From positions 467,901 through 531,900 of the forward strand of contig JBBTQS010000001.1 in NCBI GenBank assembly GCA_038065555.1: a stretch of 64,000 nucleotides of DNA, read 5' to 3'. Source of the DNA: Patescibacteria group bacterium (GTDB lineage: Bacteria; Patescibacteriota; Patescibacteriia; Magasanikbacterales; JBBTQS01). The translations under genes were made by a program, and so were the position numbers. Of the stretch, positions 18,146 through 42,073 are shown piece after piece. Under the pieces are notes generated by a model. It did not search any database and was not told the origin of the DNA. It saw nothing but the letters and a program-made list of their open reading frames with translations. Each line of letters opens with the position of its first letter. The first letter of the stretch is position 1.

Positions 18146-18395
18146 AACCAAAAGGCTAGAATCCGGTGTCGTTCGGACCTACTATGAGGTCGTGTGAACA
18201 ACGCCGAGTTCTAGCCTTCTTCTGGGGCCGGTGCTTGCGCACGCAGGAGGGAAAGAAGATAGGGCCGCCATCGCTACACAAAAAATGCGTAATTTAGGCT
18301 CATTTCTTTGCTTGATGTAGCGATGTTTTCCCTTCAACAGTCACCCAACGGATCTTATCGCGTCACAAGCAAGAAGTAGATTTGTCAATACTCTA

Positions 18396-26006: not shown

Positions 26007-27449
26007 ATGTCAGAAATGACACCAGGAGCAGAGGGTTTTGAATCCTTGGGTATTGATGCGCACATTCTTGAGCGCCTTACCAAACTCAAGTACACCACAC
26101 CAACGCCAATTCAGGCTGCTGCAATCCCCGTCGCCCTCACAGGCACAGACGTTGTCGGTATTGCACAAACAGGTACAGGCAAGACCCTCGCCTTTGGTGT
26201 TCCAATGTTGCAAACACTCGCAAAGTCCGAGAAAGGCCAAGGCCTCATTCTCGTACCAACACGCGAACTTGCACTGCAAGTTGAAGAAACCATGATCAAG
26301 ATCGGTTCCCATTTTGGGCTTGTCACTGCGGTACTGATCGGTGGTGCTTCTATGCAAATGCAGATTCGCAACTTGCGCCGCAATCCGCACGTGATCATCG
26401 CGACCCCAGGTCGCCTTGCAGATCACTTGCAGCAGCGCACGTGCTCATTGCAAGATATCGAAATCGTCGTTCTCGACGAAGCCGATCGCATGTTTGATAT
26501 TGGGTTCGCTCCACAAATCAAGAAAATCATGGCGCAGGTGCCGACAGAACGTCAGACGTTCCTCTTCTCCGCAACCATGCCACCAGCTATTGCTGCCATT
26601 GCTGCAGCGTATATGCGCTCCCCGAAACGTATTGAAGTAGCACCAGCTGGTACCAGTTCTTCGCAAGTAACACAGTCTCTCTACGTGGTGTCCAAAGACC
26701 ACAAGACGTCCCTCCTCGATCACCTTCTCCGCAAGCACGAGGGCACGGTGCTCGTCTTCTCTCGCACCAAACACGGCGCTCGCAAGATCGCCATGGCAAT
26801 CCGTGCGATGGGTCACACTTCTGTAGAAATTCACTCCAATCGTTCACTTGCGCAGCGCAAAGAAGCGCTTGCAGGATTCAAATCCGGTAAGTATCGCATC
26901 CTTGTCGCAACCGACATCGCCGCTCGCGGTATTGACGTAACAGGAATCACCCTCGTGGTGAACTTCGACCTCCCAGATAATAGCGAGGACTACGTACACC
27001 GCATCGGTCGAACCGGTCGCGCAGGCATGTCTGGTCTTGCAATCTCATTTGCACAGCCAGATCAGCGCAATGATGTTCGCGACATTGAACGCCTTATTCG
27101 TAAGTCGATCCATGTTGAAGAACTTCCAGACAACTTGCCCGCTCCTATTCGTCTCCCTGCAGAACCTCGCGCCGAATTCTCACGCCATGAGCGTGGTGGA
27201 TCTGGCGGCGGTTACGGCGGCGGACGCTCGGGTTCTGGTGGTCGCGGCGGTTCACGCGGTGGCTACGGTGGCGGCAACGGCGGTGGCGAACGAGAATATC
27301 GTCGCCCTACCAGTGGCAGCACCAGCCGCGCTCGCTCCAATAGCTACGGTTCGCAAGGCGGATTCGGTAGCAGCCGTGGCGGTGGCGCTGGATTTGGCGG
27401 CGGTTCTCGTCGTCCAAAGGAAGCACCGAAGTTCACGCGTCACTTCTAA
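26007..27449 (+). CDS. DEAD-box ATP-dependent RNA helicase with a Gly/Arg-rich (RGG-type) C-terminal tail
   Basis: Q-motif region, AQTGTGKT, DEAD, SAT and HRIGRTGRAG. The C-terminal ~90 aa are GGYGGGRSGSGGRGGSRGGYGGGNGG... Confidence 0.95.
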   Translation: MSEMTPGAEGFESLGIDAHILERLTKLKYTTPTPIQAAAIPVALTGTDVVGIAQTGTGKTLAFGVPMLQTLAKSEKGQGLILVPTRELALQVEETMIKIGSHFGLVTAVLIGGASMQMQIRNLRRNPHVIIATPGRLADHLQQRTCSLQDIEIVVLDEADRMFDIGFAPQIKKIMAQVPTERQTFLFSATMPPAIAAIAAAYMRSPKRIEVAPAGTSSSQVTQSLYVVSKDHKTSLLDHLLRKHEGTVLVFSRTKHGARKIAMAIRAMGHTSVEIHSNRSLAQRKEALAGFKSGKYRILVATDIAARGIDVTGITLVVNFDLPDNSEDYVHRIGRTGRAGMSGLAISFAQPDQRNDVRDIERLIRKSIHVEELPDNLPAPIRLPAEPRAEFSRHERGGSGGGYGGGRSGSGGRGGSRGGYGGGNGGGEREYRRPTSGSTSRARSNSYGSQGGFGSSRGGGAGFGGGSRRPKEAPKFTRHF

Positions 27450-27463
27450 AGTGCGCTAGCACA

Positions 27464-27540
27464 AACACCCCCAATTTATTCTTTCCAAGTCCTCCCCGTA
27501 AACTGAGGTCCGGGCTTGGAAAGAATAAATTGGGGGTGTT
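27464..27540. repeat. Long hairpin element, copy 1: a 26-bp perfect stem flanking the conserved 25-nt core TCCTCCCCGTAAACTGAGGTCCGGG, followed by TTTTTATT. It probably also serves as the bidirectional terminator for the helicase and corA.
   Basis: Arms AACACCCCCAATTTATTCTTTCCAAG / CTTGGAAAGAATAAATTGGGGGTGTT are exact reverse complements. The same core recurs at 38287 and, inverted, at 39163. Confidence 0.8.
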
Positions 27541-27554
27541 TTTATTACTGCACG

Positions 27555-28475
27555 TTAGAGCCAACGTTTGCGCGTAAAGATTGCGAGGAGGAAGATGGTG
27601 CTCACGAATGTGATCGCGATAATGAACGTGAAAGCCTGTGGATGTGATGCAAATGGTAGCGCGACGTTCATGCCGAAGAGACTGGTGACAAATGTTGGCA
27701 CCATGATGAGAATCGTGAGCGCAGTGAGCAACTTGATCACGCGATTCAATGAGTTGGTCATGATCGTTGAATACGCTTCGCGGATGTTGCGCATGTTCTG
27801 CACGTCGGCGTTGGCGTTCTCGATAATCTGACCAGCGCTCAACTCCAAGTCCTCAACAAGATCCTGGTCCTGTTCGTAGAGCGGAACATACTTGCCAGAG
27901 AGCAGTGCGTTGAGCATCGCACGACCTGGGACAAGTGCCGCAACGAAGTCGATGAGCACGCGCTCGAATGTCACGAACTGGATAATATCTCGGTCAGAGA
28001 CTGCGTGCAGATCAACACTCACAGAGCGAACCTTGCGACTAATCGATGTCAGGAATCCTGAGTAGCGCGCGAGCATTTGATTGAACAACTGCAATATGAA
28101 ATTCACCTTTTGTGTTGTAATGAGACTTGAAGCATTTGTCTGAAATGCCGTGAGCATCGGGATAGGTCGTGGTGCAATCGTGATCACGCCTTCAGCTGTG
28201 TGCACAATCAGAAGTGGCATTGTTGAGATGTGCTCCCCGTCTTGTACCGGCACACGCATGAAGAGGTAGATGTTGCCATCCTCTACTTCCAGACGCGGAA
28301 CTTCGTATGGATCGAGCGCGTCACGCAAATGACCGAGCTCGAGTTTGTGTTTTGCAACGAGCATTTCCAGCTCGTTCTCTGTAGGAGTCTCTGCGTACAA
28401 CCACGCACCAGCCTTCCAACTCGTGAGTGTACGCAAATCAGTATCCTTGATGGATTTGTAGAAGTATTTGATCAT
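27555..28475 (-). CDS. corA: CorA-family magnesium/cobalt transporter
   Basis: Two C-terminal TM helices with the GMN signature (LFGMNV). 306 aa. Confidence 0.85.
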   Translation of the reverse strand: MIKYFYKSIKDTDLRTLTSWKAGAWLYAETPTENELEMLVAKHKLELGHLRDALDPYEVPRLEVEDGNIYLFMRVPVQDGEHISTMPLLIVHTAEGVITIAPRPIPMLTAFQTNASSLITTQKVNFILQLFNQMLARYSGFLTSISRKVRSVSVDLHAVSDRDIIQFVTFERVLIDFVAALVPGRAMLNALLSGKYVPLYEQDQDLVEDLELSAGQIIENANADVQNMRNIREAYSTIMTNSLNRVIKLLTALTILIMVPTFVTSLFGMNVALPFASHPQAFTFIIAITFVSTIFLLAIFTRKRWL

Positions 28476-28496
28476 ACAGCATGCAACAGAACAATC

Positions 28497-30359
28497 TTAG
28501 CGAAGTACGCCACCCCACTCCACAACAGTGAATCCTTTGCGCTCTGGCGTCCGTATTGGCAACGGCTCTACTTCCTTGCGCTCTGTCAGCGGCTGATAAT
28601 CCATGAGAATGCGAATCGTGGTGTCAGGACGCGGTGTCACACGCAGCGGTGCGATGCGATTCATGAGCGTGTTGTCGTAGAACGTCACGAAATAGTACGG
28701 CGTTCTCTGCATGCGAGGTACCCAGAACTCCGCGAAATCTGCTCGCTCCTGCGTGTTGAGGCCGAGTTGCGTAAGTGTGCGCTCGAGGAACGCTGGCACC
28801 TCATCCTTTGCCACAACGAAACCACGTGATTCTGGCGTTCCAACTACAGACCCCTTTCCTTCCCAGAACAAATATCCCCACGTTTTGTTATCACGAACAT
28901 CTGTGAGTCGTCCTGTTGGTTCAGCGATGACATTCCACCCACCTGTCGGATAAAGCGGCTCAGTGATCGAAAATCCGTTCATTGGTTGCACTTGTACATT
29001 CACCTGTTGCGCCTTCTCTGGGTAGAGATAGATCACAGGCTTGCCACATTCTGCCACAGGCAAGAATTCAGTGCTGTGCATCTCATACGCGCGTCCAAAT
29101 TGATCCTGCCAGAAAATAATCGGATGGAGTGCTACAAATGCGTCGTAGCTGAGCGTCGTGCCTGGATGACGATACTCATAGGATGTGCGATGTGCATCAT
29201 ACATCCCCTTCAATTTCGCATGGTTAGGATCACGATATTCGTACACACGCGTATCCCCTGCGCCCTCAAATCCTGGAATCACGCGTCCAGCAATTTTGAA
29301 CTCAGCATTATTTGCAAGTGTTGTATCGGAGATCATGAGCAACGTGAACCCGCAACCACCCGCAGTATACGGTGCATAGGCGATGGTGTTGTTGGTTCCG
29401 TTGCTCCACGTTATTGCTGTCGCGTTATCAGCCTCAGGGCGCGCAACGGCAAATGGAAGATCCATCCGATATTTAACGTATGACCCGTCAGCCAACGGTG
29501 CGTAGAATAATCCAGTGCTCACCTTCTTTTCTCGGTACAACATGATCATGGTGGTGGTGCTGTTGCGCCACACAGGGACACTCACTGCTGGCTCGTAGTC
29601 AGAGGCAACGAACCAATTCATTTCTTCTGGGTACGTTGAGAATGGTGAGCCATCACCAAATACCGACCCTCCAAATTCACCGTCCATCGCAAAAGACACA
29701 CGTTCCTTCACCGAAACAATTTCCGTCGGTAACTCGAGCTCGTCAATTTTGATTGAATTATTCCAAACAGTGCCAGGCGCAACCTTCCACTCATCCATAC
29801 GGTCGCGCAGTTCATACACCTCACCTAGCCCCACGATGACTTGATCATTCGAATATGACCCGAGCACCACGTGCGCAGTACCTCGCTTGAGAACGTGCAG
29901 GAAAATAGGTTGTCCATACTCCACAAGACCATCTGCTCGAACAATGTGAATCTCCGCACCATTCCAAGCACCTTCTTCTCGCACCGTCCCTACGAACCAC
30001 TGCTTATACTTCGTTGTCGAAGTCACATTGGCAGTGAAAAACGTCACAGGAACTGACTTTGGCGCTGTTTCCCAGACAACATCCCCTGGCACAAACTGTG
30101 CGTAGATTTCATCCTGATTTTCTCCAGACGTTGGAGGTACGTTCTCTGGAGTACTTGTTGCCACTGTCTGTGGCTGCTGCTGTCGCATCGATGCATTCAC
30201 GAAGTATCCAGCAACAAACGCACCAAGAACTAACACGACAACGACCACCCAACCGAACACACGTGCGCCACTGCGCACTTCAGGCGACTGCATGTGATCC
30301 ATGGTTTCTTTTTTGAATGGAGGTTGCGATGGAGCCGCTGGCTTTTTTGGTTCTTCCAT
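28497..30359 (-). CDS. Large membrane-anchored extracellular protein of about 620 aa with a single N-terminal TM helix. Function unknown.
   Basis: TM segment VFGWVVVVVLVLGAFVAGYFV followed by a long Asn/Thr/Trp/Tyr-rich ectodomain. The start is taken at MEEPKKP, immediately after the stop of the upstream gene. The track ORF starts 54 nt earlier and would overlap. Confidence 0.6.
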   Translation of the reverse strand: MEEPKKPAAPSQPPFKKETMDHMQSPEVRSGARVFGWVVVVVLVLGAFVAGYFVNASMRQQQPQTVATSTPENVPPTSGENQDEIYAQFVPGDVVWETAPKSVPVTFFTANVTSTTKYKQWFVGTVREEGAWNGAEIHIVRADGLVEYGQPIFLHVLKRGTAHVVLGSYSNDQVIVGLGEVYELRDRMDEWKVAPGTVWNNSIKIDELELPTEIVSVKERVSFAMDGEFGGSVFGDGSPFSTYPEEMNWFVASDYEPAVSVPVWRNSTTTMIMLYREKKVSTGLFYAPLADGSYVKYRMDLPFAVARPEADNATAITWSNGTNNTIAYAPYTAGGCGFTLLMISDTTLANNAEFKIAGRVIPGFEGAGDTRVYEYRDPNHAKLKGMYDAHRTSYEYRHPGTTLSYDAFVALHPIIFWQDQFGRAYEMHSTEFLPVAECGKPVIYLYPEKAQQVNVQVQPMNGFSITEPLYPTGGWNVIAEPTGRLTDVRDNKTWGYLFWEGKGSVVGTPESRGFVVAKDEVPAFLERTLTQLGLNTQERADFAEFWVPRMQRTPYYFVTFYDNTLMNRIAPLRVTPRPDTTIRILMDYQPLTERKEVEPLPIRTPERKGFTVVEWGGVLR

Positions 30360-30360
30360 A

Positions 30361-32235
30361 TTAGCGAGGGAGAGAGAATGAACAATTGATGAGTTGCTTT
30401 TTGATTGCATCACTCACGCGCGAATGTTGTGAGAGATCTTTGCACAGTATAGCACGCTTCGATCCCAACAGGAGTTCCATCTGCATCGCATTGTTGTACA
30501 CGGGCATCAGTATGAACTGCGTTGCAGTAGGTTCGACTGAGAGTCCAACAGTGAGTCCAGTCTTCGTAGGCTCCGAGAAGAGTTGATCGAAGATGAAATT
30601 CCCCAGTGAGTAAAAAATCGCTTTTCCTTTGTACACCTCAATCGGCTGAACCACATGCGGATGTGCACCAATCACAACGTCCGCTCCTGCATCGATCATG
30701 GCGTGCGCAATAACCTCCTGACTCGAGTGCCAACCGTTCTGCTGATACTCCACTCCCCAATGCGGCATTGCAACAATATAGTCTGTCTTTGGTTCCAACT
30801 CACGAATCATTTTTGCAAGTGCTGGTACACCATTATCCCCTGTGAACTGATGAAATGCCACAAATCCAACCTTCTGCCCACGCACGTCTCGAATCGCAGT
30901 CACTGGCCGATTGAGTGGATCACCAAAGTAATCAACACTCGCCTCTGTGAGATACTTGTGCGTTTGCTTGAGCCCTGATTCACCGAAATTATGTGTGTGA
31001 TTATTACCCAGACTCACCATCGTAATACCGAGGTCATACAATGTCTTCGCATGTCGCGGCTCTGAGGTGAATGTGAGCAACCCATTTGGCTTCGCTACTG
31101 ACTTGAATGTGGTGAGCGGCGTCTCGAGGTTCGCCACCGTGATATCAGACCCGGAGATGAATCGTTCGATCTTCGCATATGGCCAACGATCCCCTTTTGC
31201 ATCGAACGTCGCACGCACTTTGCGATCGAGCATCATGTCGCCGAAGGCATGAATCGTAAATCGCGGCACCTCAACTCGACCACCTGTCACATAATATCCT
31301 GTGAAGTGTGAAGTATTCTCCGAGCTCTCCGGCTTCTTCGTGATCGAGTTACTACTTGTACGTGCAATTTGTCGCCACGCCAACGTCGCCTCGCCCTCAG
31401 CATCAATATCACGCATCATTTCTAACATGAATTGCAACCCTGGACGAGAATCAATATCGAGAGTACGCGCACCTCTTGCATCAAGAGTCTGCAACACTGT
31501 ACCTGCAGTCTGATCATGAAATAACGCCACATCCTCCGGAAGATAATGTGAGAAATCAAACGACCCAACAATGAGCACATCATCTGGCACATTCGCGTGC
31601 ACAATATCAGCCAACGCAGCAACAGTATCACTCGTAACTGAATCCCGAATCATGATCGGAACAATCGTTGCATTGGGCAGTGACGCACGGATGAACGGCA
31701 CAATACTGTAAACAGCGTGCTCCTTCGCAAAGGGAGCTTCTTCAACAGCAATTGTGGAAGTCGCAACCGTGAGCGCTGCAACAGCCGCAGCGTTGCTCTG
31801 CAGTACACCAAATGGCGTATTCCAAGGGCGAGCCGATGTAATGACTGCTGCGCGACCTTGCGTAAAATGATTCGGCGCGATCAACAGCACGGTTACTTTG
31901 CGATCACTTGCCACACCATCGAAGGCCTGCGCCACACGATCTGCAACCAACAAGTGATGCGGCACAATGAGTGCACGAGCACGCTGACCATCTCCACGTG
32001 TAGCAGTTTCGTCTGCTGCAAATTTCATCCGTGCTGCTGCGTATGCATCTTCGAACAATCGTTTGCTCAGGCCCGGAACCGTATGGCACGTGACCGCTTC
32101 ACACACGGACGGTGTGTTGAATCGCATCGTTGTCAGCACGTTCCAGGTCCGAGGCGCCGCAGCCGACACCCAGAACCCGACGCCAAAGGCTGCTGCAATA
32201 CTGAGTGCTGCAACGACTGCGATTCGATTGTTCAT
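30361..32235 (-). CDS. Fusion protein: N-terminal signal/TM segment, then a Memo/AmmeMemoRadiSam-B-like domain, then a C-terminal CapA-family (PgsA-like metallophosphatase) domain.
   Basis: The C-terminal half has CapA blocks GNNHTHNFG, MPHWGVEY, GAHPHVVQP and YSLGNFIFDQ. The N-terminal half (ALIVPHHLL...LLIAPNHF...) weakly resembles Memo-family proteins. The N-terminus MNNRIAVVAALSIAAAFGVGFW is hydrophobic. Confidence 0.7.
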   Translation of the reverse strand: MNNRIAVVAALSIAAAFGVGFWVSAAAPRTWNVLTTMRFNTPSVCEAVTCHTVPGLSKRLFEDAYAAARMKFAADETATRGDGQRARALIVPHHLLVADRVAQAFDGVASDRKVTVLLIAPNHFTQGRAAVITSARPWNTPFGVLQSNAAAVAALTVATSTIAVEEAPFAKEHAVYSIVPFIRASLPNATIVPIMIRDSVTSDTVAALADIVHANVPDDVLIVGSFDFSHYLPEDVALFHDQTAGTVLQTLDARGARTLDIDSRPGLQFMLEMMRDIDAEGEATLAWRQIARTSSNSITKKPESSENTSHFTGYYVTGGRVEVPRFTIHAFGDMMLDRKVRATFDAKGDRWPYAKIERFISGSDITVANLETPLTTFKSVAKPNGLLTFTSEPRHAKTLYDLGITMVSLGNNHTHNFGESGLKQTHKYLTEASVDYFGDPLNRPVTAIRDVRGQKVGFVAFHQFTGDNGVPALAKMIRELEPKTDYIVAMPHWGVEYQQNGWHSSQEVIAHAMIDAGADVVIGAHPHVVQPIEVYKGKAIFYSLGNFIFDQLFSEPTKTGLTVGLSVEPTATQFILMPVYNNAMQMELLLGSKRAILCKDLSQHSRVSDAIKKQLINCSFSLPR

Positions 32236-32244
32236 ACGAAATGA

Positions 32245-33429
32245 TTAGATGCGAGATTCAACCTGCAACACGTACGAAGTGAGATAGCGCGACTCTGGGA
32301 AATACACAGACTGTGGATGATCCGTGCTCTGCCCAACAACAGCGAGCACACGTACGATGACTCCAGCCTGCACCGACGCACGGCGCAACACGAACTGAAA
32401 ATCATCTTCGGTCAAGAAATGTGAGCAGCTCGACGTCACAAAGATTCCACCCGTCTTCACCAGACGTAGCGCCGCACGATTGAGGAAGTGATATGCCTTC
32501 ATTCCCTCTTCTTGGTCCTTCTGAGACTTAATCAGCGCTGGTGGATCGAGAATCACCATGTCATATTCTGGTGTACGACGATCACCGAACCACTGAAACA
32601 CATCAGACTCAACATTCTCAACTTTTTTCGATGACAACTTGTTCGCCTTGAGCATCGCCTCGCACCCTGCGAGCGCAAACGCCGAGCTATCCACATTCAC
32701 AACACTCTCTGCCCCACCCTTGAGTGCTGCAACTGCTGACGCACCTGTGTACGAAAATACGTTTGCAACTGTCTTGCCCTCTGCATAGCGTTCGATCAAA
32801 TCACGCAAATCCTTTTGGTCGAGAAATGCGCCGGTCTTTTGTCCTTGCAACACGTACGCGATCGATGCACGACCATGTTCAACGTACGCAACTGCATCCT
32901 CAGTCTCGCCGTAGATCACGCCTTCCTTTGCATCGAGTCCCTCGTCGCGTCGCACACCAATATCACTGCGCTCAACAATCGCACGTGGCGAGAAGATGTG
33001 TGTGAGTGCATCAACAATCTCCGTACGCATGTTCTCCATGGTCGTAATCGAAATCTGTAGAACAAGCACATCGTCATATCGATCAACAACCAATCCAGGG
33101 AGTCCATCAGACTCGCCGAACACCACGCGATATCCTGTTGTGTCAGTCCCCGGTCCGTAGCCGAGCAACTTGCGTCGCTCGTTGGCAGCGCGAATCTTCT
33201 TCTCGATCCATGCACTATCGATCACGGCGTCATCCCATGCCATCATGCGCACCGCGATCGACCCATGACTGGAATACGATCCAACGCCCAAGAGCGAGCC
33301 AGTGGCACTTACCACTCCCACCATGGATCCGTGGACAATTTTTTCATCCTTATTATCAATGGCGCCAGAGAAAATCCATGGATGACGGACACCTACGGTT
33401 GCCTCTTTGCCTTTTTTCAACTGAATCAT
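32245..33429 (-). CDS. rlmI: Class I SAM-dependent 23S rRNA m5C methyltransferase, RlmI/YccW family (PUA-like N-terminus plus methyltransferase domain)
   Basis: Architecture and motifs (…VANVFSYTGASAVAAL…DMVILDPPAL…GGIFVTSSCS) are typical of RlmI. The start is taken at MIQLKKGKEATVG. Confidence 0.7.
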   Translation of the reverse strand: MIQLKKGKEATVGVRHPWIFSGAIDNKDEKIVHGSMVGVVSATGSLLGVGSYSSHGSIAVRMMAWDDAVIDSAWIEKKIRAANERRKLLGYGPGTDTTGYRVVFGESDGLPGLVVDRYDDVLVLQISITTMENMRTEIVDALTHIFSPRAIVERSDIGVRRDEGLDAKEGVIYGETEDAVAYVEHGRASIAYVLQGQKTGAFLDQKDLRDLIERYAEGKTVANVFSYTGASAVAALKGGAESVVNVDSSAFALAGCEAMLKANKLSSKKVENVESDVFQWFGDRRTPEYDMVILDPPALIKSQKDQEEGMKAYHFLNRAALRLVKTGGIFVTSSCSHFLTEDDFQFVLRRASVQAGVIVRVLAVVGQSTDHPQSVYFPESRYLTSYVLQVESRI

Positions 33430-33500
33430 CGGGTACATATCGAGTAAAAAACGAATAAAGCGCTTCAAATTATCACTGGACCTATGGTACACTAGCGCAT

Positions 33501-34259
33501 ATGTTGTCACAACCCTACCTGCGCCACCTCAGAACGGTCGGACAATTCACGGTTTGGCTCGTAAATGGTGCACACGTACGAAGTGAAATCAACGAACAGT
33601 TCACCAACTTCGGCCAGCACTACCGATTCCCGTTCATTCCCAAATACGAATTCTGGATTGACCACCTCACTCACCCGCAGGAGATCCACTATTTCATCGA
33701 CCACTTGATCGCCGAGTGGCGCGCGATGGACGCAGGTGCGTCCTATGTCGATGCCATTGGTCATGCAGATCGTATTGAGCGCGCGGAGCGTCACCACAGT
33801 CGGATTTATCGTGAGTTGCACGGACACGAACGCTCACATCCCAAGGAAGTGCTCCGCCACATCCACGTGGAGCCACTACGCAAGTACAGCACTCGCGAGC
33901 TTGCCGTCTGGATTGTGCGCAGCGACGTCATCAGAGATCTTTTTTATGTCGACTTCACCGAAGGCGGGCACGGATTTGTCTATCCATTTGTTCCGATGAA
34001 CGAGGTGTGGATCGACGAAGACCTCACACCACACGAGCGACCATACGTCGTGCTCCACGAATTACACGAACGCAACCTCATGGCGCACCATCGCTACGAC
34101 TATCCACGCGCCCACCGCAGCGCAAGCGCAGTAGAAGCATTTTGTCGTCACCATCCAACAGCAATACAACGCAAAATCGCGGCCGAGGCACGTGTTGCTG
34201 CCCGACCGCGATCCATTGTCACACCTAATTACAAATGGTGGGATGTGGTGAAAGCTTAG
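33501..34259 (+). CDS. Hypothetical His-rich protein of 252 aa with an internal tandem duplication. A metal-binding role is possible.
   Basis: Two repeats share the pattern [FY]x[FY]PF[IV]PxxExWID..LT..E..Y[FV][IV].H[LE][IL].E, and the protein has 27 histidines. Its 3' end overlaps the convergent anti-sigma-like gene by 4 nt. Confidence 0.55.
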   Translation: MLSQPYLRHLRTVGQFTVWLVNGAHVRSEINEQFTNFGQHYRFPFIPKYEFWIDHLTHPQEIHYFIDHLIAEWRAMDAGASYVDAIGHADRIERAERHHSRIYRELHGHERSHPKEVLRHIHVEPLRKYSTRELAVWIVRSDVIRDLFYVDFTEGGHGFVYPFVPMNEVWIDEDLTPHERPYVVLHELHERNLMAHHRYDYPRAHRSASAVEAFCRHHPTAIQRKIAAEARVAARPRSIVTPNYKWWDVVKA

Positions 34260-34993
34260 TCTCGATCCACATTCAGACGTCGAATCCCAAACGCACGGAT
34301 ACCGTCGCCGTCTTCTTCACCAAAGATCATAATGTCATCCCCAACACGCAGCTCACGACCTTGAGCCTTTTTTGTTCCTTTGTTGGTGCGAACACGAATC
34401 CGTTTTCCCTCTCGCTCTTCGCCTGGATGTATTGCAGGTCGAGCCATTGGCGGCGCAATACGAATTTCTGGTTCACCATTATGCATCTCAACAACCCTAC
34501 CCCGCTTCACTTCATGCACAGGGAGTGACTCATAATGTTGGTACACTGGCTGCGCAATTGGCAATCGATGACTCGGCCCATGGATCGGCGTGTAATACGC
34601 AAGTGCAGCACCACCTAGCGCCACAAATACCAATCCAGCTACGACGGTATACAACAGTGGTCGTCGATACGCAAATGCATACCGACGCACCAACACCTCG
34701 AGCACCAGCACAAAGACAAATGCAATTCCGATCACAAGCCATGGCAATGAATACAAGAAGTACCCAACCCCACGCATGCCGAACTCAGGCAGAAATCCAA
34801 TATCTGTAGTGCGCGCAACAAATACTACGAAGCTCACCAAATACAACCCAACCAACAACACGAGTACCACACCCAACACTGCAAGTGCCGCGCGCAATAC
34901 AAAGTGCCATCGTGGTCGCATCGCGACACGACCCTCCTGAATCTTTTGCTCGATCAGGTCTCGAATAGATTGTGGTTCTTGTGGTGTGCTCAT
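34256..34993 (-). CDS. Putative membrane-bound anti-sigma factor of 245 aa, translationally coupled to the ECF sigma gene
   Basis: A 4-nt overlap with the upstream ECF sigma gene. Cytoplasmic N-terminus, then 3-4 TM helices. No conserved motif, so the call rests on position alone. Confidence 0.4.
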   Translation of the reverse strand: MSTPQEPQSIRDLIEQKIQEGRVAMRPRWHFVLRAALAVLGVVLVLLVGLYLVSFVVFVARTTDIGFLPEFGMRGVGYFLYSLPWLVIGIAFVFVLVLEVLVRRYAFAYRRPLLYTVVAGLVFVALGGAALAYYTPIHGPSHRLPIAQPVYQHYESLPVHEVKRGRVVEMHNGEPEIRIAPPMARPAIHPGEEREGKRIRVRTNKGTKKAQGRELRVGDDIMIFGEEDGDGIRAFGIRRLNVDRD

Positions 34994-35556
34994 ACGAGAT
35001 GCTCGGGGTTCTGAATATACGACTTCAATTTTTCGCGAGCCCGCCGCAGACGAACGCCCACAGTCGCAACAGGCAAACGCAAAATCTCGGCAATTTCCTT
35101 GTAATCCAGCTCCTGGAAGTAATACAACACAAGGGGCTCTCGATATTTCACATCGAGCTCTGCTAGATGCTTTTCGATCTGCTGCCGCACCTGCGTTCGG
35201 TGCATCGCATCCTCTGGATCCTCAATATTCCCTGCCAACTGTGGCAAAAGTGTGTCGAAATCAAGTGACACCACACGCTCGCGGCCCTTCTTCTTGATCG
35301 CATTAATGAATTCGTTGTGCGCGACGCGGTAGAGCCACGATGAGAACTTGCGATCCGGATCCACACTGCGCAAGTTCGTGTACGCCTTGATGAACACATC
35401 CTGTACACAATCCTGACACTCCTCTGCATCGAGCAAGAACTTGCGCGCATACCGCAACATCTTCGCCTCGTACCGCTCGATCAATTCGCGAAATACAAAA
35501 AGTTCACCTGCCTGCACCCGCACGACCAATTCTTCATCAGTAGGAGTCGTGGGCAT
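34990..35556 (-). CDS. ECF-type RNA polymerase sigma-70 factor
   Basis: Sigma-70 region 2 (…QDVFIKAYTNL…FSSWLYRVAHNEFINAIKKK) and region 4 (…LDYKEIAEILRLPVATVGVRLRRAREKLK). 188 aa. Confidence 0.85.
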   Translation of the reverse strand: MPTTPTDEELVVRVQAGELFVFRELIERYEAKMLRYARKFLLDAEECQDCVQDVFIKAYTNLRSVDPDRKFSSWLYRVAHNEFINAIKKKGRERVVSLDFDTLLPQLAGNIEDPEDAMHRTQVRQQIEKHLAELDVKYREPLVLYYFQELDYKEIAEILRLPVATVGVRLRRAREKLKSYIQNPEHLV

Positions 35557-35566
35557 ACGCAGTGGG

Positions 35567-35908
35567 CTACCGTGCGTCTCCTGATCCCTGGATCACGCCG
35601 CGATCTTTGCGCGAAAGCAACTTCGCAATATTCGCCTCAGCAATATCGTCGAGCGAGAGGTCGAGCTGCAGCGCGAGCTGCGCCGTGTACCACAACACAT
35701 CGCCCAACTCAGCACGCAGCTGTTCCTTGCGCTCTGCATCGACTACACCGTTGAAGTCGCGAATGATTTTCTTAATCTTGCCCGCAACCTCACCTGCTTC
35801 ACTTGCAAGCCCTAATGCCGGATACACATACCCCGCGCCAAATGCTGGATACATCGCAGTGAGTTTGCTTTTCTCCTGATATTCTTGAAATGTCATAGTA
35901 CTGATCAT
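35567..35908 (-). CDS. MazG-like nucleoside triphosphate pyrophosphohydrolase family protein (small single-domain)
   Basis: …ASEAGEVAGKIKKIIRDFNG…ELGDVLWYTAQLALQLDLSLDDIAEANIAKL is the MazG/NTP-PPase helix pattern. Confidence 0.7.
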   Translation of the reverse strand: MISTMTFQEYQEKSKLTAMYPAFGAGYVYPALGLASEAGEVAGKIKKIIRDFNGVVDAERKEQLRAELGDVLWYTAQLALQLDLSLDDIAEANIAKLLSRKDRGVIQGSGDAR

Positions 35909-35985
35909 CGTACGCTGTGTAGATCAGCCCGTCAAAACAAAGACCGACCCACACCCGTACGAGTGCAAGTCGGTCACCGCAGCAA

Positions 35986-36561
35986 TTACCTTGTTACAAA
36001 TCGAAATCCTGTTGCTGCCTCCAGAATTTGTTCCGGCGTAAATGACGTCTGTTGGAGCAAGTCCACGATGAGCCACGCCCGTTCACGCCCTGTGTTGAGC
36101 GCAGCGACACCAGCGAGCACCTCCAGACAATGCGGCGTATGGAACAACACCTCATCAATGTTGGGCGATGTCGGCACCCCCTTGTCTTGCCTCGATGGCG
36201 TGACCAGGTGGAGCAACCAATCCGTCACAAGACTCGCCGCCACCACGATCGTCGGATCACGTCGTGATTCGCCAACGAGCAAGGACGCAACGCAATCATG
36301 GTATCCACCATACGCACACCGATCTGAGAGATGGGATCGCACCGACGAACATTGTTGCGTTGGTACTGCATATGGCACACCTGCGGTGAGAAACGCATCC
36401 ACACACCGCAACACACCGAGATACCCATCAAGTGCCGTAACACTCGATGGACGAAGTATACGGAACACCTCGTCCGGAAACGGTCCATCGCGGCGGGCAA
36501 GCCCGGCCTTGACGCACAGTTCGAACGAGGTCAAGAAATCAGCACTAGTCTTTGTTCCCAT
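35986..36561 (-). CDS. Hypothetical protein of 191 aa
   Basis: A protein-like ORF. The opposing 293-aa plus-strand ORF is Ser/Thr/Arg-rich junk. No confident family. Confidence 0.4.
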   Translation of the reverse strand: MGTKTSADFLTSFELCVKAGLARRDGPFPDEVFRILRPSSVTALDGYLGVLRCVDAFLTAGVPYAVPTQQCSSVRSHLSDRCAYGGYHDCVASLLVGESRRDPTIVVAASLVTDWLLHLVTPSRQDKGVPTSPNIDEVLFHTPHCLEVLAGVAALNTGRERAWLIVDLLQQTSFTPEQILEAATGFRFVTR

Positions 36562-36585
36562 TATCTCCCTCGCAACCGTTGGTCA

Positions 36586-37152
36586 TTATTCGTTGACGCG
36601 AGCACTGTACTCACCCGTCTCCGTATTCACGAGAATTTCCTCGCCTTCCTTGATGAAGATTGGTGCCTGCACATGGAGGCCATTGTCGAGCGTAATATCC
36701 TTGGTCACGTTGCCAGCAGTGCTGTCCCCGCGAACCGCAGGAGGTGCTTCGACGACACGGTACTGAACCTTCTTCGGCAACTGGATCGTTACCACACGCT
36801 CTTCGAACATGACACCGAGTACCTCGAGGCCTTCCTTGAGATACTTCACATCATCGCCGATCGTGTCTGCCTCGATCTCCTCGGTCCCGAAGGTAACCTG
36901 GTTCATGAACGAGTAGAACGTACCGTTGTTGTAGAGATACTGGAGGTTGACGTACTGCACCTGTACATTGTCGATGCTTTCGCCTGACTTGTACGTGATG
37001 TTAGTACCCTTACCACTCGTAATACTCTTCATCTTTGTCTTCACGAACGCCGAACCCTTGCCTGGATTCACAAACTGCGCGTCAGTGATGACGTAGAGGT
37101 CGTTCTGGTGGCGAATAATGCCGCCCTTCTTAATGTCTGTTGTATCGCCCAT
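36586..37152 (-). CDS. efp: Elongation factor P
   Basis: 188 aa. The loop VNPGKGSAFVKTK carries the conserved modifiable Lys, and the three-domain length fits EF-P. Confidence 0.9.
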   Translation of the reverse strand: MGDTTDIKKGGIIRHQNDLYVITDAQFVNPGKGSAFVKTKMKSITSGKGTNITYKSGESIDNVQVQYVNLQYLYNNGTFYSFMNQVTFGTEEIEADTIGDDVKYLKEGLEVLGVMFEERVVTIQLPKKVQYRVVEAPPAVRGDSTAGNVTKDITLDNGLHVQAPIFIKEGEEILVNTETGEYSARVNE

Positions 37153-37156
37153 ACTA

Positions 37157-38215
37157 TTAATCGAAAAGAATTGACATCGGCAATGCTATCACGTCATTGA
37201 TATTCTGGCAACCAGTCATGACCTGCACCATTCGGTCAATTCCCAGAGCAATTCCAGAGGATTCTGGCATTCCAGCGCGCAGCGCGTCGATGAATTCACG
37301 ATCTACTGCAAAGACATCTTTGCCAGCAAGCCGTCGCTCCTCGCGCTCCAACTCAAGGCGTCGCAACTGCTCATGGTGATCCGTGAGTTCTCCAAACGCA
37401 TTGGCCAACTCCATCCCGCTCACATACAACTCAAACCGCTGCGCATAGCGTGGATCATTTGGCGCCAATCGCGCCAGCGCCGCCATCTCCGCAGGATATC
37501 CATACAAGAACACAGGACCAGACTCCGCAGTACCAATATTCGGTTCAATCTCATTCAAGAAAACGCGATAGAACAAATCTGCGTACGACTCAGTCTCAGC
37601 AGCAGCGTACCCCTTCTCACGACACAACACATACATCGCCTCACGCGTCAGGTACTGCTCGAGATCAACATTTGCATACTGTCGCCACACATCACGCATG
37701 TGCAATCGCGCCCAAGGCTGACGGAGAATCCGCGATTGCTCAATGGCTGGCCGAACTGCATCCGCGTGCGGCCCATCAAGTAATGCATTGGCCACAGAGA
37801 CGAAGAGTGATTCAGTATCATCCATGATCGCCCAGTAATCTGCCCCAGCACGATACCACTCAATCATCATGAACTCTGGATTGTGTGTTCCGCCGAATGA
37901 CTCATTGTCACGAAAAACTTTTTGCATGGAGAAGATGCGCTGCTCTCCTGCTGCAAGCAACTTCTTCATGGTGTACTCAGGCGAGGTATGCAAATACCCC
38001 GTGCGCTCCACATTCTTGTCATCACGCACAGCGATCCGCATCGGCGACAAATACGGCTCCTGCCCCGGAAGTTGCAAGATCGTAGGCGCATCAACTTCAA
38101 CAAATGACTGCAACCAGAAAAATGTGCGGGTCAACCGCATGATCTCCGATCGAATCTGCAAATTCTGCCGCACGCGGCGAAGGTGTTCCAGGTGGCGCAT
38201 ACGCATTGTATTCAA
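37157..38215 (-). CDS. epmA: EF-P lysine lysyltransferase EpmA (PoxA/GenX), a truncated class II LysRS paralogue
   Basis: Class II motifs (…FRDNESFGGTHNPEFMMIEWY… and …GMPESSGIALGIDRMVQVMTG) without an anticodon-binding domain. It lies immediately upstream of efp. Confidence 0.8.
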   Translation of the reverse strand: MNTMRMRHLEHLRRVRQNLQIRSEIMRLTRTFFWLQSFVEVDAPTILQLPGQEPYLSPMRIAVRDDKNVERTGYLHTSPEYTMKKLLAAGEQRIFSMQKVFRDNESFGGTHNPEFMMIEWYRAGADYWAIMDDTESLFVSVANALLDGPHADAVRPAIEQSRILRQPWARLHMRDVWRQYANVDLEQYLTREAMYVLCREKGYAAAETESYADLFYRVFLNEIEPNIGTAESGPVFLYGYPAEMAALARLAPNDPRYAQRFELYVSGMELANAFGELTDHHEQLRRLELEREERRLAGKDVFAVDREFIDALRAGMPESSGIALGIDRMVQVMTGCQNINDVIALPMSILFD

Positions 38216-38261
38216 TTACGAGGTAAGTGAACCACGGGGGTGGGAACAATGCAACACAGCG

Positions 38262-38336
38262 AAGCCAAGCAAAGCTCTTTTCCCAGTCCTCCCCGTAAAC
38301 TGAGGTCCGGGCTGGGAAAAGAGCTTTGCTTGGCTT
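38262..38336. repeat. Long hairpin element, copy 2: a 25-bp perfect stem (AAGCCAAGCAAAGCTCTTTTCCCAG / CTGGGAAAAGAGCTTTGCTTGGCTT) around the identical 25-nt core.
   Basis: It sits in the divergent intergenic region between epmA and the 38443 gene, which is not a terminator position. Confidence 0.8.
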
Positions 38337-38442
38337 TACCGTATCGTCACGTTCACACTCCATAGACACTCACCGCGCACTTTGATATAGTCCTCCCTCG
38401 CACCCATGCGAGCAACCACTAGAGAAAGGAAGCATCGAACTC

Positions 38443-39018
38443 ATGAAGCCGCTCATTCTGACAATCATGCGAGCAAGTACCAACAAGGACCCTCAGGACC
38501 CCACGAGCCACATGCGGGGCGAGGTGGTAGAGGGTTTGCCATCGCACATCGGAGATTCGTACATCATCCTCAACAATCTCCTCGAACACGAACGTGTCTG
38601 GAGCACACTCGGGTACTTCGTAACCTTCGACGCAAACCTCGGTGACAAAGACAAAGATCAATTCGTGATTCTTTTCACCGAGTGCACAGTCCTTCCTCCG
38701 ATCAACGCAGGAGAGCTCACGAAGTCGGACCACATCTGCAAGGTGTTCCAGGATATCATCATGCGTCCGTCTCCACTCCAACTTCACGACGTGCCGCTCA
38801 TCCCGGGTCCTCGTACCATATTCACCGGCGGCAAACTGGAGATGCACTTCGAACGCGAAGAATTCGGACCATGGTCAGCGCAGGCGCGGATCGAGACACA
38901 ATGCCTCCACGGTGGATATTCCAGCATCCCCAAAGAGGTGTACACGGCACTGGCACAGGAGCTCAAATGCCCTCTCCAGCTCGCCCACATACACACATTC
39001 AACCCCACAGACTCCTGA
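38443..39018 (+). CDS. Hypothetical protein of 191 aa
   Basis: RBS AAAGGAAG precedes the ATG. Its own terminator lies at about 39050-39095 (10-bp stem ACGCCATCGG/CCGATGGCGT plus a T-rich run). Confidence 0.5.
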   Translation: MKPLILTIMRASTNKDPQDPTSHMRGEVVEGLPSHIGDSYIILNNLLEHERVWSTLGYFVTFDANLGDKDKDQFVILFTECTVLPPINAGELTKSDHICKVFQDIIMRPSPLQLHDVPLIPGPRTIFTGGKLEMHFEREEFGPWSAQARIETQCLHGGYSSIPKEVYTALAQELKCPLQLAHIHTFNPTDS

Positions 39019-39132
39019 CGCGCGTCACGCGCTCTCAGGTCTCAACATGACGCCATCGGCTCCTCACGGTCCCGATGGCGTTCGTCTTTTCTGAAGGGTG
39101 TTTTGCTTTGCCGACGCACAACTAGTGATGTA

Positions 39133-39216
39133 GCCAAACCCCTCCAGTACTTCGTGAGCAAACCGGACCTCAGTTAACGGGGAGGATTTGTGAATGAAGT
39201 GCTGGAGGGGTTTGGC
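39133..39216. repeat. Long hairpin element, copy 3: 30-bp arms with 5 mismatches (3 of them G·U on the plus strand) around the core in inverted orientation, CCGGACCTCAGTTAACGGGGAGGA.
   Basis: It lies between two independent terminators of the convergent genes. The core differs from copies 1 and 2 by one A-to-T change. Confidence 0.75.
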
Positions 39217-39234
39217 GGCATCAGTGTTCGTGAA

Positions 39235-39275
39235 GTTGGGTAAAACAAAACACCGGCCGAAGCCGGTGCCCTGAA
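39235..39275 (-). terminator. Intrinsic terminator of the RRM gene: stem GCACCGGC/GCCGGTG, loop TTCG, then TTTTGTTTT.
   Basis: Read directly on the reverse strand, just after the stop codon. Confidence 0.65.
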
Positions 39276-39287
39276 TTTCGGATGAAA

Positions 39288-39602
39288 TTAGCGATCGAAT
39301 CCGCCACGGCGGAAACCACCAGTGCTTCCACCTGCTGGACGAGGACCACGATCTTCACGTGGCTGTGCAACGGATACGCGGATAGCGCGGCCGTCAACTT
39401 CCTTACCATCAAGCTGAGCAATAGCAGCTTCAGCTTCTGCGTCCGTAGAGAATTCTACGAAGCCGAAACCTTTCGAGCGTCCAGTAGCATGATCTTTCAC
39501 AACTGTAGCAGATACAACAGTACCTACCTGAGAGAATGCAGCGTGCATGCTCTCATCTGTGGTCGCCCATGCGAGTCCGCCGATAAACAACTTATTTGCC
39601 AT
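39288..39602 (-). CDS. RRM-type RNA-binding protein (RNP-1/RNP-2 motifs) with a Gly/Arg-rich tail
   Basis: MANKLFIGGLAWATTDESM… is RNP-2, and …KGFGFVEF is RNP-1. The start is taken at the internal Met. Confidence 0.85.
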   Translation of the reverse strand: MANKLFIGGLAWATTDESMHAAFSQVGTVVSATVVKDHATGRSKGFGFVEFSTDAEAEAAIAQLDGKEVDGRAIRVSVAQPREDRGPRPAGGSTGGFRRGGFDR

Positions 39603-39754
39603 AGTAACTTTTTCTATATCCTGCACGGCGACCTTTACAGCACGTACAGATAGAGCAATTCTAGCACATTTGGACCGGGTTGTCAATGGCCCAAAACGCC
39701 CGTGTTGTTGTGAGGCTTATTCTGGCGTATACTAGGGCTATATTTGTTTTTTCT

Positions 39755-41855: not shown

Positions 41856-41999
41856 ACCCAGTCCCCCTGCGCATCAAGCGCATGTGCACGTGACTAACGA
41901 ATGATTCGTCAGTGCGAGATTCTTACCACGCGTGAGAAGGGACAGTCAACGCCAGCGTACCAATTCCAATCGCACTTGCAGTATTCAAAAATAGTTTTG

Positions 42000-42073
42000 T
42001 CGGGCTAACACGACTTGAACGTGCGACCTCATGCACCCCATGCATGCGCTCTAGCCAACTGAGCTATAGCCCG
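42000..42073 (-). tRNA. tRNA-Pro (anticodon GGG)
   Basis: Reverse strand CGGGCTA-TA-GCTC-AGTTGGCTA-GAGC-G-CATGC-ATGGGGT-GCATG-AGGTC-GCACG-TTCAAGT-CGTGT-TAGCCCG-A gives a 74-nt cloverleaf with U33, G37 and the GGG anticodon. No CCA is encoded. Confidence 0.8.

What the first reader, a model, noticed from the sequence alone, without database searches (positions are those of the whole stretch)
27464..39216. Three-copy family of very long hairpins with a conserved ~25-nt apical core and different stems
Three intergenic loci carry 25-30-bp inverted repeats enclosing the same core. Copy 1 is at 27464-27540, copy 2 at 38262-38336 and copy 3 at 39133-39216. The core is TCCTCCCCGTAAACTGAGGTCCGGG, with a single A-to-T change in copy 3, which is in inverted orientation. 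The stem sequences share nothing between copies, yet the stems are perfect in copies 1 and 2 and are held by compensatory G·U pairs in copy 3 on the plus strand. This is the reverse of typical REP or MITE families, where stems are conserved and loops vary. The core has its own inner 4-bp stem (CCTC/GAGG). On one strand it presents the SD-like GGGGAGGA, and on the other the anti-SD-like UCCUCCCC. Copy 1 sits at a convergent-terminator position. Copy 2 sits in a divergent promoter region, and copy 3 lies between two independent canonical terminators. They are therefore not simply terminators. The flanking genes include a DEAD-box RNA helicase, an RRM RNA-binding protein and epmA.
Basis: seen in the sequence. 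Interest (0 to 1): 0.75.

Follow-up and report, generated by a model that had tools for sequence, protein, structure and literature searches.

The report
Hairpin-tip repeat element in a CPR bacterium
The three long hairpins belong to a small, undescribed family of palindromic repeats in an uncultured groundwater Patescibacteria genome, each with a strictly conserved 25-nt tip, and one copy was demonstrably inserted into the loop of an ordinary transcription terminator.

Summary
The same 25-nt core sits at the apex of the three longest inverted repeats in the window. These are c1 at 27463-27541, c2 at 38262-38336 and c3 at 39133-39216.

- c3 differs from the core at two positions, not one.
- The stems are not unrelated. 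The inner 12-17 bp and the outer AAACCCC/GGGGTTT ends are alignable in all copies.

The window comes from an 881-kb Hainich groundwater Patescibacteria contig that carries at least five copies. Related genomes carry copies too.

- **Insertion.** Three relatives have an empty c1 site. It is a plain bidirectional terminator with the same outer stem. The window has a 59-nt insert (17-bp arms plus core) at its tip.
- **Conservation.** Between orthologous c2 copies the core stays 96% identical. Arms and spacers drift to 57-78%, yet pairing is kept (22 of 31 pairs change on both sides).
- **Strand.** Mismatches are G·U on one strand (18 versus 2). That strand presumably folds as RNA or ssDNA.
- **Layout.** c2 and c3 flank an orphan, hypervariable 191-aa gene in inverted orientation in every lineage.

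Best reading: a low-copy, non-autonomous palindromic element (MITE/REP-like) with a functional apex. No Rfam, Pfam or fold match identifies a partner. Transcription was not tested.

The parts
27463..27541 (-). c1: composite hairpin with a 27-bp perfect stem. The better-folding 'R' strand is the minus strand, the sense strand of corA.
   Evidence: R1 95.9 bits on the - strand, 47.6 on the +.
27473..27531 (-). The 59-nt inserted unit of c1: a 17-bp inner stem (AATTTATTCTTTCCAAG / CTTGGAAAGAATAAATT) plus the 25-nt core at 27490-27514.
   Evidence: This stretch is absent from the same DEAD/CorA junction in L008, L012 and L013. Each of those has a plain terminator there.
27463..27472 (.). Host terminator stem, left half (AAACACCCCC). 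Its partner GGGGGTGTTT lies at 27532-27541 and is followed by a T tract.
   Evidence: Aligns with AAAACACCGCC...GGCGGTGTTTT of the empty sites.
38262..38336 (-). c2: hairpin with a 25-bp perfect stem; core at 38287-38311. It lies in non-transcribed-looking spacer between a conserved candidate epmA promoter block (ATGCAA 38249-38254 / AGTGAA 38226-38231 on the + strand) and the orphan-gene promoter.
   Evidence: Orthologues are present in L006, L007, L008 and L001. Between orthologues the core is 96% identical and the arms 58-77%.
39133..39216 (+). c3: hairpin of subtype B, with three G·U pairs and a conserved tandem G·A internal loop. Core at 39162-39186, inverted relative to c2.
   Evidence: Orthologues are present in L007, L008 and L001; L002 is a paralogue.
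38363..38391 (+). Sigma-70-like promoter TAGACA-17-TATAGT of the orphan gene, 26 nt from c2.
   Evidence: The TATAGTCC block is conserved in L006, L007 and twice in L001.
38443..39018 (+). Orphan 191-aa gene bracketed by c2 and c3 in inverted orientation. It is hypervariable between relatives.
   Evidence: No Pfam, PHROG, NCBIfam, PADLOC or PDB match.
39049..39090 (+). Conserved terminator-like hairpin of the orphan gene (GACGCCATCGG...CCGATGGCGTTCGTCTTTT).
   Evidence: It recurs twice in L001.
26007..27449 (+). DEAD-box helicase gene, convergent on c1.
27555..28475 (-). CorA gene, convergent on c1. The protein is 100% identical to a Hainich Patescibacteria MAG protein.
37157..38215 (-). epmA, with efp at 36586-37152; divergent from the orphan gene.
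39288..39686 (-). RRM RNA-binding protein gene. Its terminator lies at about 39243-39269.

Best explanation
The hairpins are copies of a small non-coding palindromic repeat element, in the broad class of bacterial MITE/REP-like extragenic palindromes. The unit is about 55-60 nt: inverted arms of roughly 12-17 bp around an asymmetric 25-nt apex.

**Shown**
- The element has spread within one Patescibacteria lineage. There are at least five copies in the window's genome and further copies in relatives.
- At least once it landed at the tip of an existing intrinsic-terminator hairpin. This made a composite super-hairpin whose outer stem is host sequence.
- After insertion the stem drifts at about the neutral rate but stays paired.
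- The apex is held nearly invariant.

**Inferred**
- The apex is the functional part. It is probably the recognition site of a trans-acting protein that reads it on the folded single strand (R strand: 5'-CCCGGACCUCAGUUWACGGGGAGGA-3'), either as RNA or as ssDNA.
- Perfect arms in the type-A copies are kept by DNA-level arm-to-arm copying (template switching within a quasi-palindrome) in addition to selection.
- The orphan 191-aa gene, always bracketed by two inverted copies, is the best available candidate partner, by analogy with the REP/RAYT layout. Nothing identifies it as a nuclease or transposase.
For: **Family and copy number**
- The identical core occurs three times in the window. Two more copies lie on the same 881-kb contig (L002, L003).
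- Related genomes carry copies as well (L001, L006, L007, L008).
- Model R1 finds exactly these and no others in the window.

**Whole-element homology**
- All ten copies align over their full length.

**Insertion polymorphism**
- L008, L012 and L013 (CorA 81-87% identical) have AAAACACCGCC-loop-GGCGGTGTTTT at the DEAD/CorA junction.
- The window has the same outer stem plus a 59-nt apical insert.
- L003 lies between convergent DoxX and HAD genes, within an A-tract/stem/T-tract context.
- The two copies on the same contig, L002 and L003, sit in other gene contexts than c1-c3. The c2 position is empty in L019/L020.

**Pairing maintained**
- 93.5% of cells are paired, against 71.8% when shuffled.
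- 22 of 31 pairs change on both sides.
- The covariation score is 0.60, against 0.18 in shuffles and at most 0.15 in slid controls.

**Apex under constraint**
- In c2 orthologues the core is 24/25 identical, while arms are 58-77% and spacers 57-78%.

**Strand asymmetry**
- G·U to A·C is 18:2.
- Stem-only free energy favours the R strand in 11 of 11 copies, by 6-12 kcal/mol in the six imperfect ones.
- The invariant inner helix CCUC:GGGG needs a U·G on that strand.

**Bracketed orphan gene**
- The c2-gene-c3 layout is seen whole in the window, L007, L008 and L001. In L006 the contig breaks off inside c3.
Against: - Copy number is very low for a mobile repeat: five in at least 620 kb examined.
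- Only one filled/empty site pair is available, and no target-site duplication can be read because the ends are palindromic.
- No transposase or parent IS was found.
- c2 and c3 have stayed at fixed positions with a conserved core across lineages. That is what a host-functional element would also do.
- c2 and c3 do not sit in obvious terminators.
- Spread could be passive, by ectopic conversion between similar terminators, rather than true transposition.
- The G·U statistic includes orthologues and paralogues that are not independent.
Confidence: 0.5

Rival explanations
1. A host cis-acting structured RNA module. The hairpin is transcribed on the R strand in 3' or 5' untranslated regions. Its conserved apical internal loop and heptaloop dock an RNA-binding protein or RNase, for example for 3'-end protection, RNase III processing or reinforced bidirectional termination. 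The repeat-like spread is secondary.
For: - R-strand G·U bias and stem-only energies favour that strand.
- An invariant U·G sits in the inner helix, and subtype B has a conserved tandem G·A.
- The core is 96% conserved where spacers are about 60%.
- The R strand is co-directional with corA (c1), DoxX (L003), the orphan gene (c3) and the genes flanking L002.
- Neighbours include DEAD-box, RRM and KH proteins.
Against: - There is no consistent position relative to genes.
- c2 lies between two divergent promoters and upstream of both, so it is probably not part of either mRNA.
- In convergent or divergent contexts, co-directionality carries no information.
- Five type-A copies have about 130 perfect Watson-Crick pairs and no G·U inside the stem. 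That is unusual for purely RNA-level selection.
- The neighbour enrichment is post hoc in a genome rich in translation and RNA genes.
- No Rfam family matches.
Confidence: 0.27
2. A DNA-level recombination or cassette-boundary site. It would be read as a folded single strand, loosely like an integron attC. Crossover in the core would let the flanking variable genes be exchanged.
For: - DNA similarity between the window and L008 breaks inside c2. The orphan gene is only 34% identical while the flanks are about 80%.
- L001 carries two hairpin-promoter-gene-terminator modules in tandem.
- L001 c2 has arms of two different types. Its left arm is a direct repeat of the c3 left arm.
- L007 c2 has arms from two alleles.
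- Synteny ends at the c2 position in L019/L020.
Against: - No recombinase lies nearby.
- The right boundary of the divergent segment is the gene's stop codon, not c3.
- L007 is a short-read contig. Other contigs break inside these palindromes, so its hybrid arms may be an assembly chimera.
- A simple inversion or integration model did not reproduce the arm combinations seen in L001.
- attC sites are conserved at the stem base, not at the tip.
Confidence: 0.13
3. Ordinary intrinsic terminators that happen to share a loop, or hairpins whose stems act as antisense guides against other loci.
For: c1 and L003 sit at convergent gene ends with A and T tracts.
Against: - A shared 25-nt loop is not chance.
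- c2 and c3 lack T tracts.
- Relatives terminate with short-loop hairpins at the same site.
- The arms have no match beyond chance 9-13-mers (the longest with one mismatch) anywhere in the 82 kb available from this genome.
Confidence: 0.03

Closest known systems
REP / REPIN elements with their RAYT transposase (REPtrons)
   Same: Extragenic palindromes that fold as single strands, mostly at gene ends. They are vertically persistent, and two inverted copies flank a single-copy gene (background: PMC3337134, PMC3116915).
   Different: - In REPs the stem and a 5' GTAG/CGTC tag are conserved and the centre varies. Here the tip is conserved and no common 5' tag exists.
- Copy number is about 5, not tens to hundreds.
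- The flanked protein has no Y1/HUH signature.
Hairpin-forming MITEs (Correia/NEMIS, ERIC/IRU) and the terminator-like SPRITE repeat
   Same: Small non-coding inverted-repeat elements in intergenic DNA. Their transcripts form long hairpins that can be RNase III substrates or terminators (review PMC10969869). Insertion polymorphism between relatives is also shared.
   Different: - This element is much shorter (about 59 nt).
- No target-site duplication or parent IS is visible.
- The element sits inside a host hairpin rather than beside it.
- The apex, not the terminal repeats, is the constrained part.
IS1397 / ISKpn1 (insertion into loops of palindromic units; from my own knowledge, not checked here)
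   Same: Target choice: the tip of a pre-existing extragenic hairpin.
   Different: Those are autonomous IS elements of about 1.4 kb with a transposase. Here the inserted unit is 59 nt and non-coding.
Integron attC sites
   Same: Imperfect palindromes recognised as a folded single strand with strand-specific asymmetry, lying next to variable genes.
   Different: attC sites are conserved at the stem base (R''/R' boxes) and variable at the apex, and they need an IntI integrase. Neither holds here.
Bidirectional intrinsic terminators
   Same: c1 and L003 keep the A-tract/GC stem/T-tract frame of the host terminator.
   Different: The stem is extended to 27-28 bp and the loop is a structured 25-nt module. 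c2 and c3 have no T tract.

Membership tests
REP / REPIN-RAYT | 20-40-nt imperfect palindrome with conserved stem and a 5' GTAG or CGTC tag | tested here: not met
   The conserved part is the 25-nt apex. The outer ends differ (AAAACACCCCC, TAAAGCC, GTAGCCAAACC). GTAG precedes only c3 of the window lineage.
REP / REPIN-RAYT | Tens to hundreds of copies per genome | tested here: not met
   Five copies with the exact 21-mer in at least 620 kb of the 881-kb contig. One species among the GTDB representatives.
REP / REPIN-RAYT | Single-copy Y1/HUH transposase (RAYT) flanked by inverted repeats | tested here: not met
   The layout is present: c2 and c3 are inverted around a gene. The protein, however, has no Pfam, NCBIfam, PHROG or PDB-profile hit, and the fold search is uninformative.
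MITE | Terminal inverted repeats and a small non-coding body | tested here: met
   Inverted arms of 12-17 bp around a 25-nt centre; no ORF.
MITE | Presence/absence polymorphism at the same site between relatives | tested here: met
   c1 is filled in the window and empty in L008, L012 and L013.
MITE | Target-site duplication | tested here: inconclusive
   The ends of the insert are themselves palindromic (AATT...AATT). The ancestral loop is unknown, and only one site pair is available.
MITE | Parent IS or transposase with matching ends | not testable with these tools
   Only 64 kb plus short loci of the genome could be read, and the collection scans were exhausted.
Intrinsic terminator | GC-rich stem, short loop, 3' U tract | tested here: not met
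   c1 keeps the frame of a terminator but has a 25-nt structured loop. c2 and c3 have no T tract. The consensus scan lists none of the three hairpins as terminator-like.
Integron attC | Conserved R''/R' boxes at the stem base, a variable centre, and a nearby IntI | tested here: not met
   Conservation is highest at the centre. The neighbours are DEAD, CorA, EpmA, EF-P, RRM and an orphan gene.
Any Rfam 15 family | Score at or above the gathering threshold | tested here: not met
   No hits in the window at gathering thresholds. Only miRNA-precursor models, far below threshold, in 38200-39300.
Correia/ERIC-type RNA-hairpin repeats | Co-transcription with neighbouring genes and RNase III/E processing | not testable with these tools
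   No expression data are available.

The most novel reading that the evidence does not exclude
The 25-nt apex is the docking module of a previously unknown system in CPR bacteria. One version is a hairpin-tip-homing miniature element mobilised by the orphan, non-HUH 191-aa protein that it brackets, a REPtron-like partnership with a new protein. The other version is a new structured RNA (or ssDNA) motif that recruits a dedicated protein to the tips of terminators.
Probability: 0.15. Interest if true: 0.7.

Novelty: new variant of a known kind. Interest (0 to 1): 0.45.

Why it matters
Repeat elements and non-coding RNAs of Patescibacteria (CPR) are almost unexplored. I found no description of this family in Rfam or in four literature searches.

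It gives a clean example of a miniature element nested in the tip of a terminator. That explains how long hairpins with 'different stems, same loop' can arise.

It also shows a short sequence held under strong constraint, with a strand-specific fold, in a reduced genome of about 1 Mb. If the apex has a protein partner, this would be a tractable new nucleic-acid recognition module.

In practice, these palindromes break or chimerise short-read assemblies of these genomes.

Tried and rejected
- **L002 and L003 as orthologues from another genome.** I first assumed this because their stems resemble those of c3 and c1. Their gene contexts differ, and the CorA look-up showed they lie on the same 881-kb contig as the window. 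They are paralogues.
- **Stems as guides or antisense.** No arm matches anything else beyond chance 9-13-mers (the longest with one mismatch) in 82 kb.
- **Apex GGGGAGGA pairing with the 5' UTR UCCUCCCU of the orphan gene.** This is not conserved in L008 or L001.
- **Phage origin.** No match in IMG/VR.
- **Additional diverged copies in the window.** None were found with filters off. The hairpin at 18152-18218 scores only 15 bits.
- **Simple inversion or integration models for the hybrid arms of L001 c2.** They do not reproduce the observed arm combinations.
- **k-turn reading of the apical GGA bulge.** The flanking bases do not fit (reasoning only).
- **Enrichment next to RNA-binding protein genes.** Judged post hoc and not significant in a CPR genome.
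- **Extended palindromy beyond the perfect stems**. At c1 it is mostly stop-codon context. At c3 it is a real but weak inverted duplication of the RRM terminator tail, left unexplained.


Full report
**1. The observation**

The 25-nt core TCCTCCCCGTAAACTGAGGTCCGGG occurs at 27490-27514(+), 38287-38311(+) and, with two mismatches, at 39162-39186(-). No match appeared in 100 shuffles. The sequence around each copy is an inverted repeat, and the three are the longest inverted repeats in the window.

Each folds far better than shuffled controls, at z = -8 to -10. c1 has a 27-bp perfect stem and c2 a 25-bp perfect stem. c3 has three G·U pairs and a tandem G·A on the + strand, where it folds at -65.7 kcal/mol against -48.9 on the other strand.

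| Feature | Coordinates | Strand |
|---|---|---|
| DEAD-box helicase | 26007-27449 | + |
| c1 hairpin | 27463-27541 | |
| CorA | 27555-28475 | - |
| EF-P and EpmA | 36586-38215 | - |
| c2 hairpin | 38262-38336 | |
| Promoter TAGACA-17-TATAGT | 38363-38391 | + |
| Orphan 191-aa gene | 38443-39018 | + |
| Terminator of the orphan gene | 39049-39090 | + |
| c3 hairpin | 39133-39216 | |
| RRM protein gene | 39288-39686 | - |

Two details are wrong. c3 has two core differences, not one. The stems are not unrelated (section 3).

**2. Source and copy number**

The CorA protein of the window is 100% identical to a protein of a 'Patescibacteria group bacterium' MAG. It is carried on Hainich H41 groundwater contigs, one of them 881,481 bp long. 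The best named EpmA and CorA relatives are also CPR lineages.

A scan of public metagenome contigs for the core 21-mer found two more copies on that same 881-kb contig. These are L002 and L003, 120 kb apart. The scan also found copies in a related genome (L004 and L005, which are the same sequence as L001).

The GTDB species-representative collection holds the core in only one species, L001. Its record labels it Gammaproteobacteria. It is syntenic with the window and about 79% identical in DNA, so I think the label is wrong; this is inference. IMG/VR has no match.

The window's genome therefore has at least five copies in at least 620 kb. The family is confined to a narrow clade. Rfam gives nothing at gathering thresholds. 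Below them it gives only miRNA-precursor models, which respond to any long hairpin.

**3. The hairpin as a whole is one diverged repeat**

Ten copies align over their full length at 68% mean column identity. They are c1-c3, L002, L003, and the c2/c3 orthologues from L001, L006 and L008. The consensus, written on the better-folding strand, is:

...AAACCCC-(variable ~8)-CTTCTTTTCCAG-CCCGGACCTCAGTTWACGGGGAGGA-CTGGAAAAGAAG-(variable)-GGGGTTT...

There are two subtypes:
- **Type A** (c1, c2, L003) has perfect arms.
- **Type B** (c3, L002 and the c3 orthologues) has the inner stem CTTCGTGAGCAG / CTGCGAAGGAAG, with a conserved tandem G·A.

Within the core, only the central heptaloop varies: AGTTTAC, AGTTAAC, AGGTTAC or AGCTTGC. 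GGACCTC and GGGGAGGA are fixed.

**4. Pairing is maintained**

On the RNAalifold consensus, 22 of 31 pairs show changes on both sides.
- 93.5% of cells are paired, against 71.8% in column shuffles.
- The covariation score is 0.60, against 0.18 in shuffles and at most 0.15 when partners are slid by 1-3 columns.

The sequences are related paralogues and orthologues, so these are not probabilities. The slid controls keep that relatedness and still fail.

A covariance model (R1) recovers all known copies at 64-98 bits. It finds one further degenerate copy in L001, at 1153-1234, just upstream of the epmA promoter block. It finds no additional copy in the window, even with filters off.

**5. c1 is an insertion at the tip of a terminator**

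Three relatives have a short bidirectional terminator at the same DEAD/CorA junction. They are L008, L012 and L013, with CorA 81%, 85% and 87% identical. Their terminators are:

| Locus | Left arm | Loop | Right arm |
|---|---|---|---|
| L008 | AAAAAAACACCCCGCA | TTCG | TGCAGGGTGTTTTTTT |
| L012 | AAAAACGCCGCC | CATGCA | GGCGGCGTTTTT |
| L013 | AACAAAACACCGCC | TTTACG | GGCGGTGTTTTGTT |

The window has the same frame, AAAACACCCCC...GGGGGTGTTT. At the apex it carries 59 extra nucleotides (27473-27531), made of 17-bp arms plus the core. With three empty relatives, insertion in the window lineage is the parsimonious reading.

L003 likewise sits between convergent DoxX and HAD genes, in an A-tract/CCCCAC...GTGGGG/T-tract frame. 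This explains much of the 'different stems': at c1, the one site with empty relatives, the outermost 10 bp are host terminator, and the remaining differences are drift.

c2 and c3 do not sit in obvious terminators.

**6. The apex is constrained and the arms drift**

For c2 orthologues (window against L006, L008 and L001), one search gives:

| Region | Identity |
|---|---|
| Core | 24/25 in every comparison |
| Arms | 58-77% |
| Adjacent intergenic spacers | 57-78% |

The arms therefore change about as fast as spacer DNA, including transversions. Yet they are perfectly complementary in each of the window, L006 and L008. Compensatory evolution under selection alone should be slower than neutral and should leave G·U intermediates. 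I therefore infer a DNA-level contribution, namely arm-to-arm template switching in quasi-palindromes. That mechanism is known from my own background knowledge and was not tested here.

**7. Strand asymmetry**

I aligned each left arm to the complement of its right arm.
- Transition mismatches are G·U on the strand reading CCCGGACCUC...GGGGAGGA in 18 cases. They are A·C in 2 cases.
- With the core replaced by GAAA, that strand folds better in 11 of 11 copies. The difference is 6-12 kcal/mol in the six imperfect ones.
- The invariant inner helix CCUC:GGGG also requires a U·G on that strand.

Orthologous c3 copies are not independent. L001 c2 and the degenerate L001 copy are independent and agree.

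So the functional form is a folded single strand, either RNA or ssDNA. Which one cannot be decided. c2 lies 7 nt upstream of a conserved candidate epmA promoter block (TTGCAW-17-TTCACT, present even in L019, which lacks the hairpin). It lies 26 nt upstream of the orphan-gene promoter. It is therefore probably not in either mRNA.

**8. The bracketed orphan gene**

In the window, L007, L008 and the more distant L001, c2 and c3 lie in inverted orientation around one gene, with its own promoter and a conserved terminator. L006 shows the same layout, but its contig breaks off inside c3.
- The protein family has only three clusters among 1.8 billion representatives.
- It is 34% identical between the window and L008, although the flanks are about 80% identical in DNA.
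- The similarity break starts inside c2.
- L001 has a second hairpin-promoter-gene-terminator module.
- L019/L020 have neither hairpin nor module next to epmA.

The layout recalls RAYT genes flanked by inverted REPs. However, every family, profile and fold search on the protein was negative or uninformative. The link is a lead only.

**9. Verdict**

The finding is a real, apparently undescribed, low-copy palindromic repeat family of a CPR bacterium. It works most like a miniature non-autonomous element that nests in hairpin tips and carries a functional apex (confidence about 0.5).

The rivals are:
- a host structured RNA module (about 0.27);
- a single-strand recombination or cassette-boundary site (about 0.13).

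The family fails the defining tests for REP/RAYT, attC, plain terminators and all Rfam families. It meets the inverted-repeat and insertion-polymorphism criteria of MITEs, but not the target-duplication or parent-IS criteria, which were not demonstrable here.

Caveats:
- there are no expression data;
- there is only one filled/empty site;
- short-read contigs break or go chimeric inside these palindromes;
- E-values from R1 are rough.

Noticed in passing
window 18152-18218: Another long imperfect hairpin, with 23-nt arms around GGACCTACTATGAGGTCGTGT, which has its own GACCT/AGGTC inner stem. It resembles the family superficially but scores only 15 bits with R1. Its mismatches are two G·U and two A·C on either strand.
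   Followed up: partly
window 38443-39018: An orphan 191-aa gene with invariant motifs HM.G....GLP, EHE..W.T..YFV.F and ARIET. Only three clusters of relatives exist among 1.8 billion representatives. It is 34% identical to the L008 allele, while neighbouring genes are 80-88% identical. It behaves as a hypervariable or swapped cassette gene.
   Followed up: yes
window 39049-39090; L001 2062-2103 and 3643-3685: The orphan gene's terminator hairpin (GACGCCATCGG...CCGATGGCGTTCGTCTTTT) is unusually conserved. In L001 it recurs after a second, unrelated gene for a secreted-looking protein. That gene is also preceded by a degenerate hairpin and a TATAGTCC promoter. The whole looks like a repeated hairpin-promoter-gene-terminator module.
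   Followed up: partly
L006 3058-3080; L016, L017 and L018 3' ends; L007 1015-1094: Short-read (Logan) contigs end inside these hairpins. In L007 they join arms of two different alleles across the core. The palindromes appear to act as assembly breakpoints or chimera points.
   Followed up: partly
L008 8866-9039; L001 about 3680-3850; window 39095-39250: c3 is embedded in a longer, weak inverted duplication. It places a copy of the T-tract half of the RRM terminator (GGCCGGTGTTTTGTTTT) on the opposite side of the hairpin.
   Followed up: no
L019 and L020 1-300: A relative with 90% identical EpmA keeps the conserved promoter-like block ATTGCAA-17-TTCACT upstream of epmA. It has no hairpin and a different neighbour. 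Synteny breaks exactly where c2 sits in the window.
   Followed up: partly
L001 record title: The MAG holding L001 is labelled 'uncultured Gammaproteobacteria'. Its contig is syntenic with the Patescibacteria window and about 79% identical to it, so the label is probably a mis-assignment.
   Followed up: no
window 1-64000: Rfam at gathering thresholds reported no RNA family in the whole 64 kb, although ARAGORN finds one tRNA-Pro(GGG) at 41999-42073(-).
   Followed up: no
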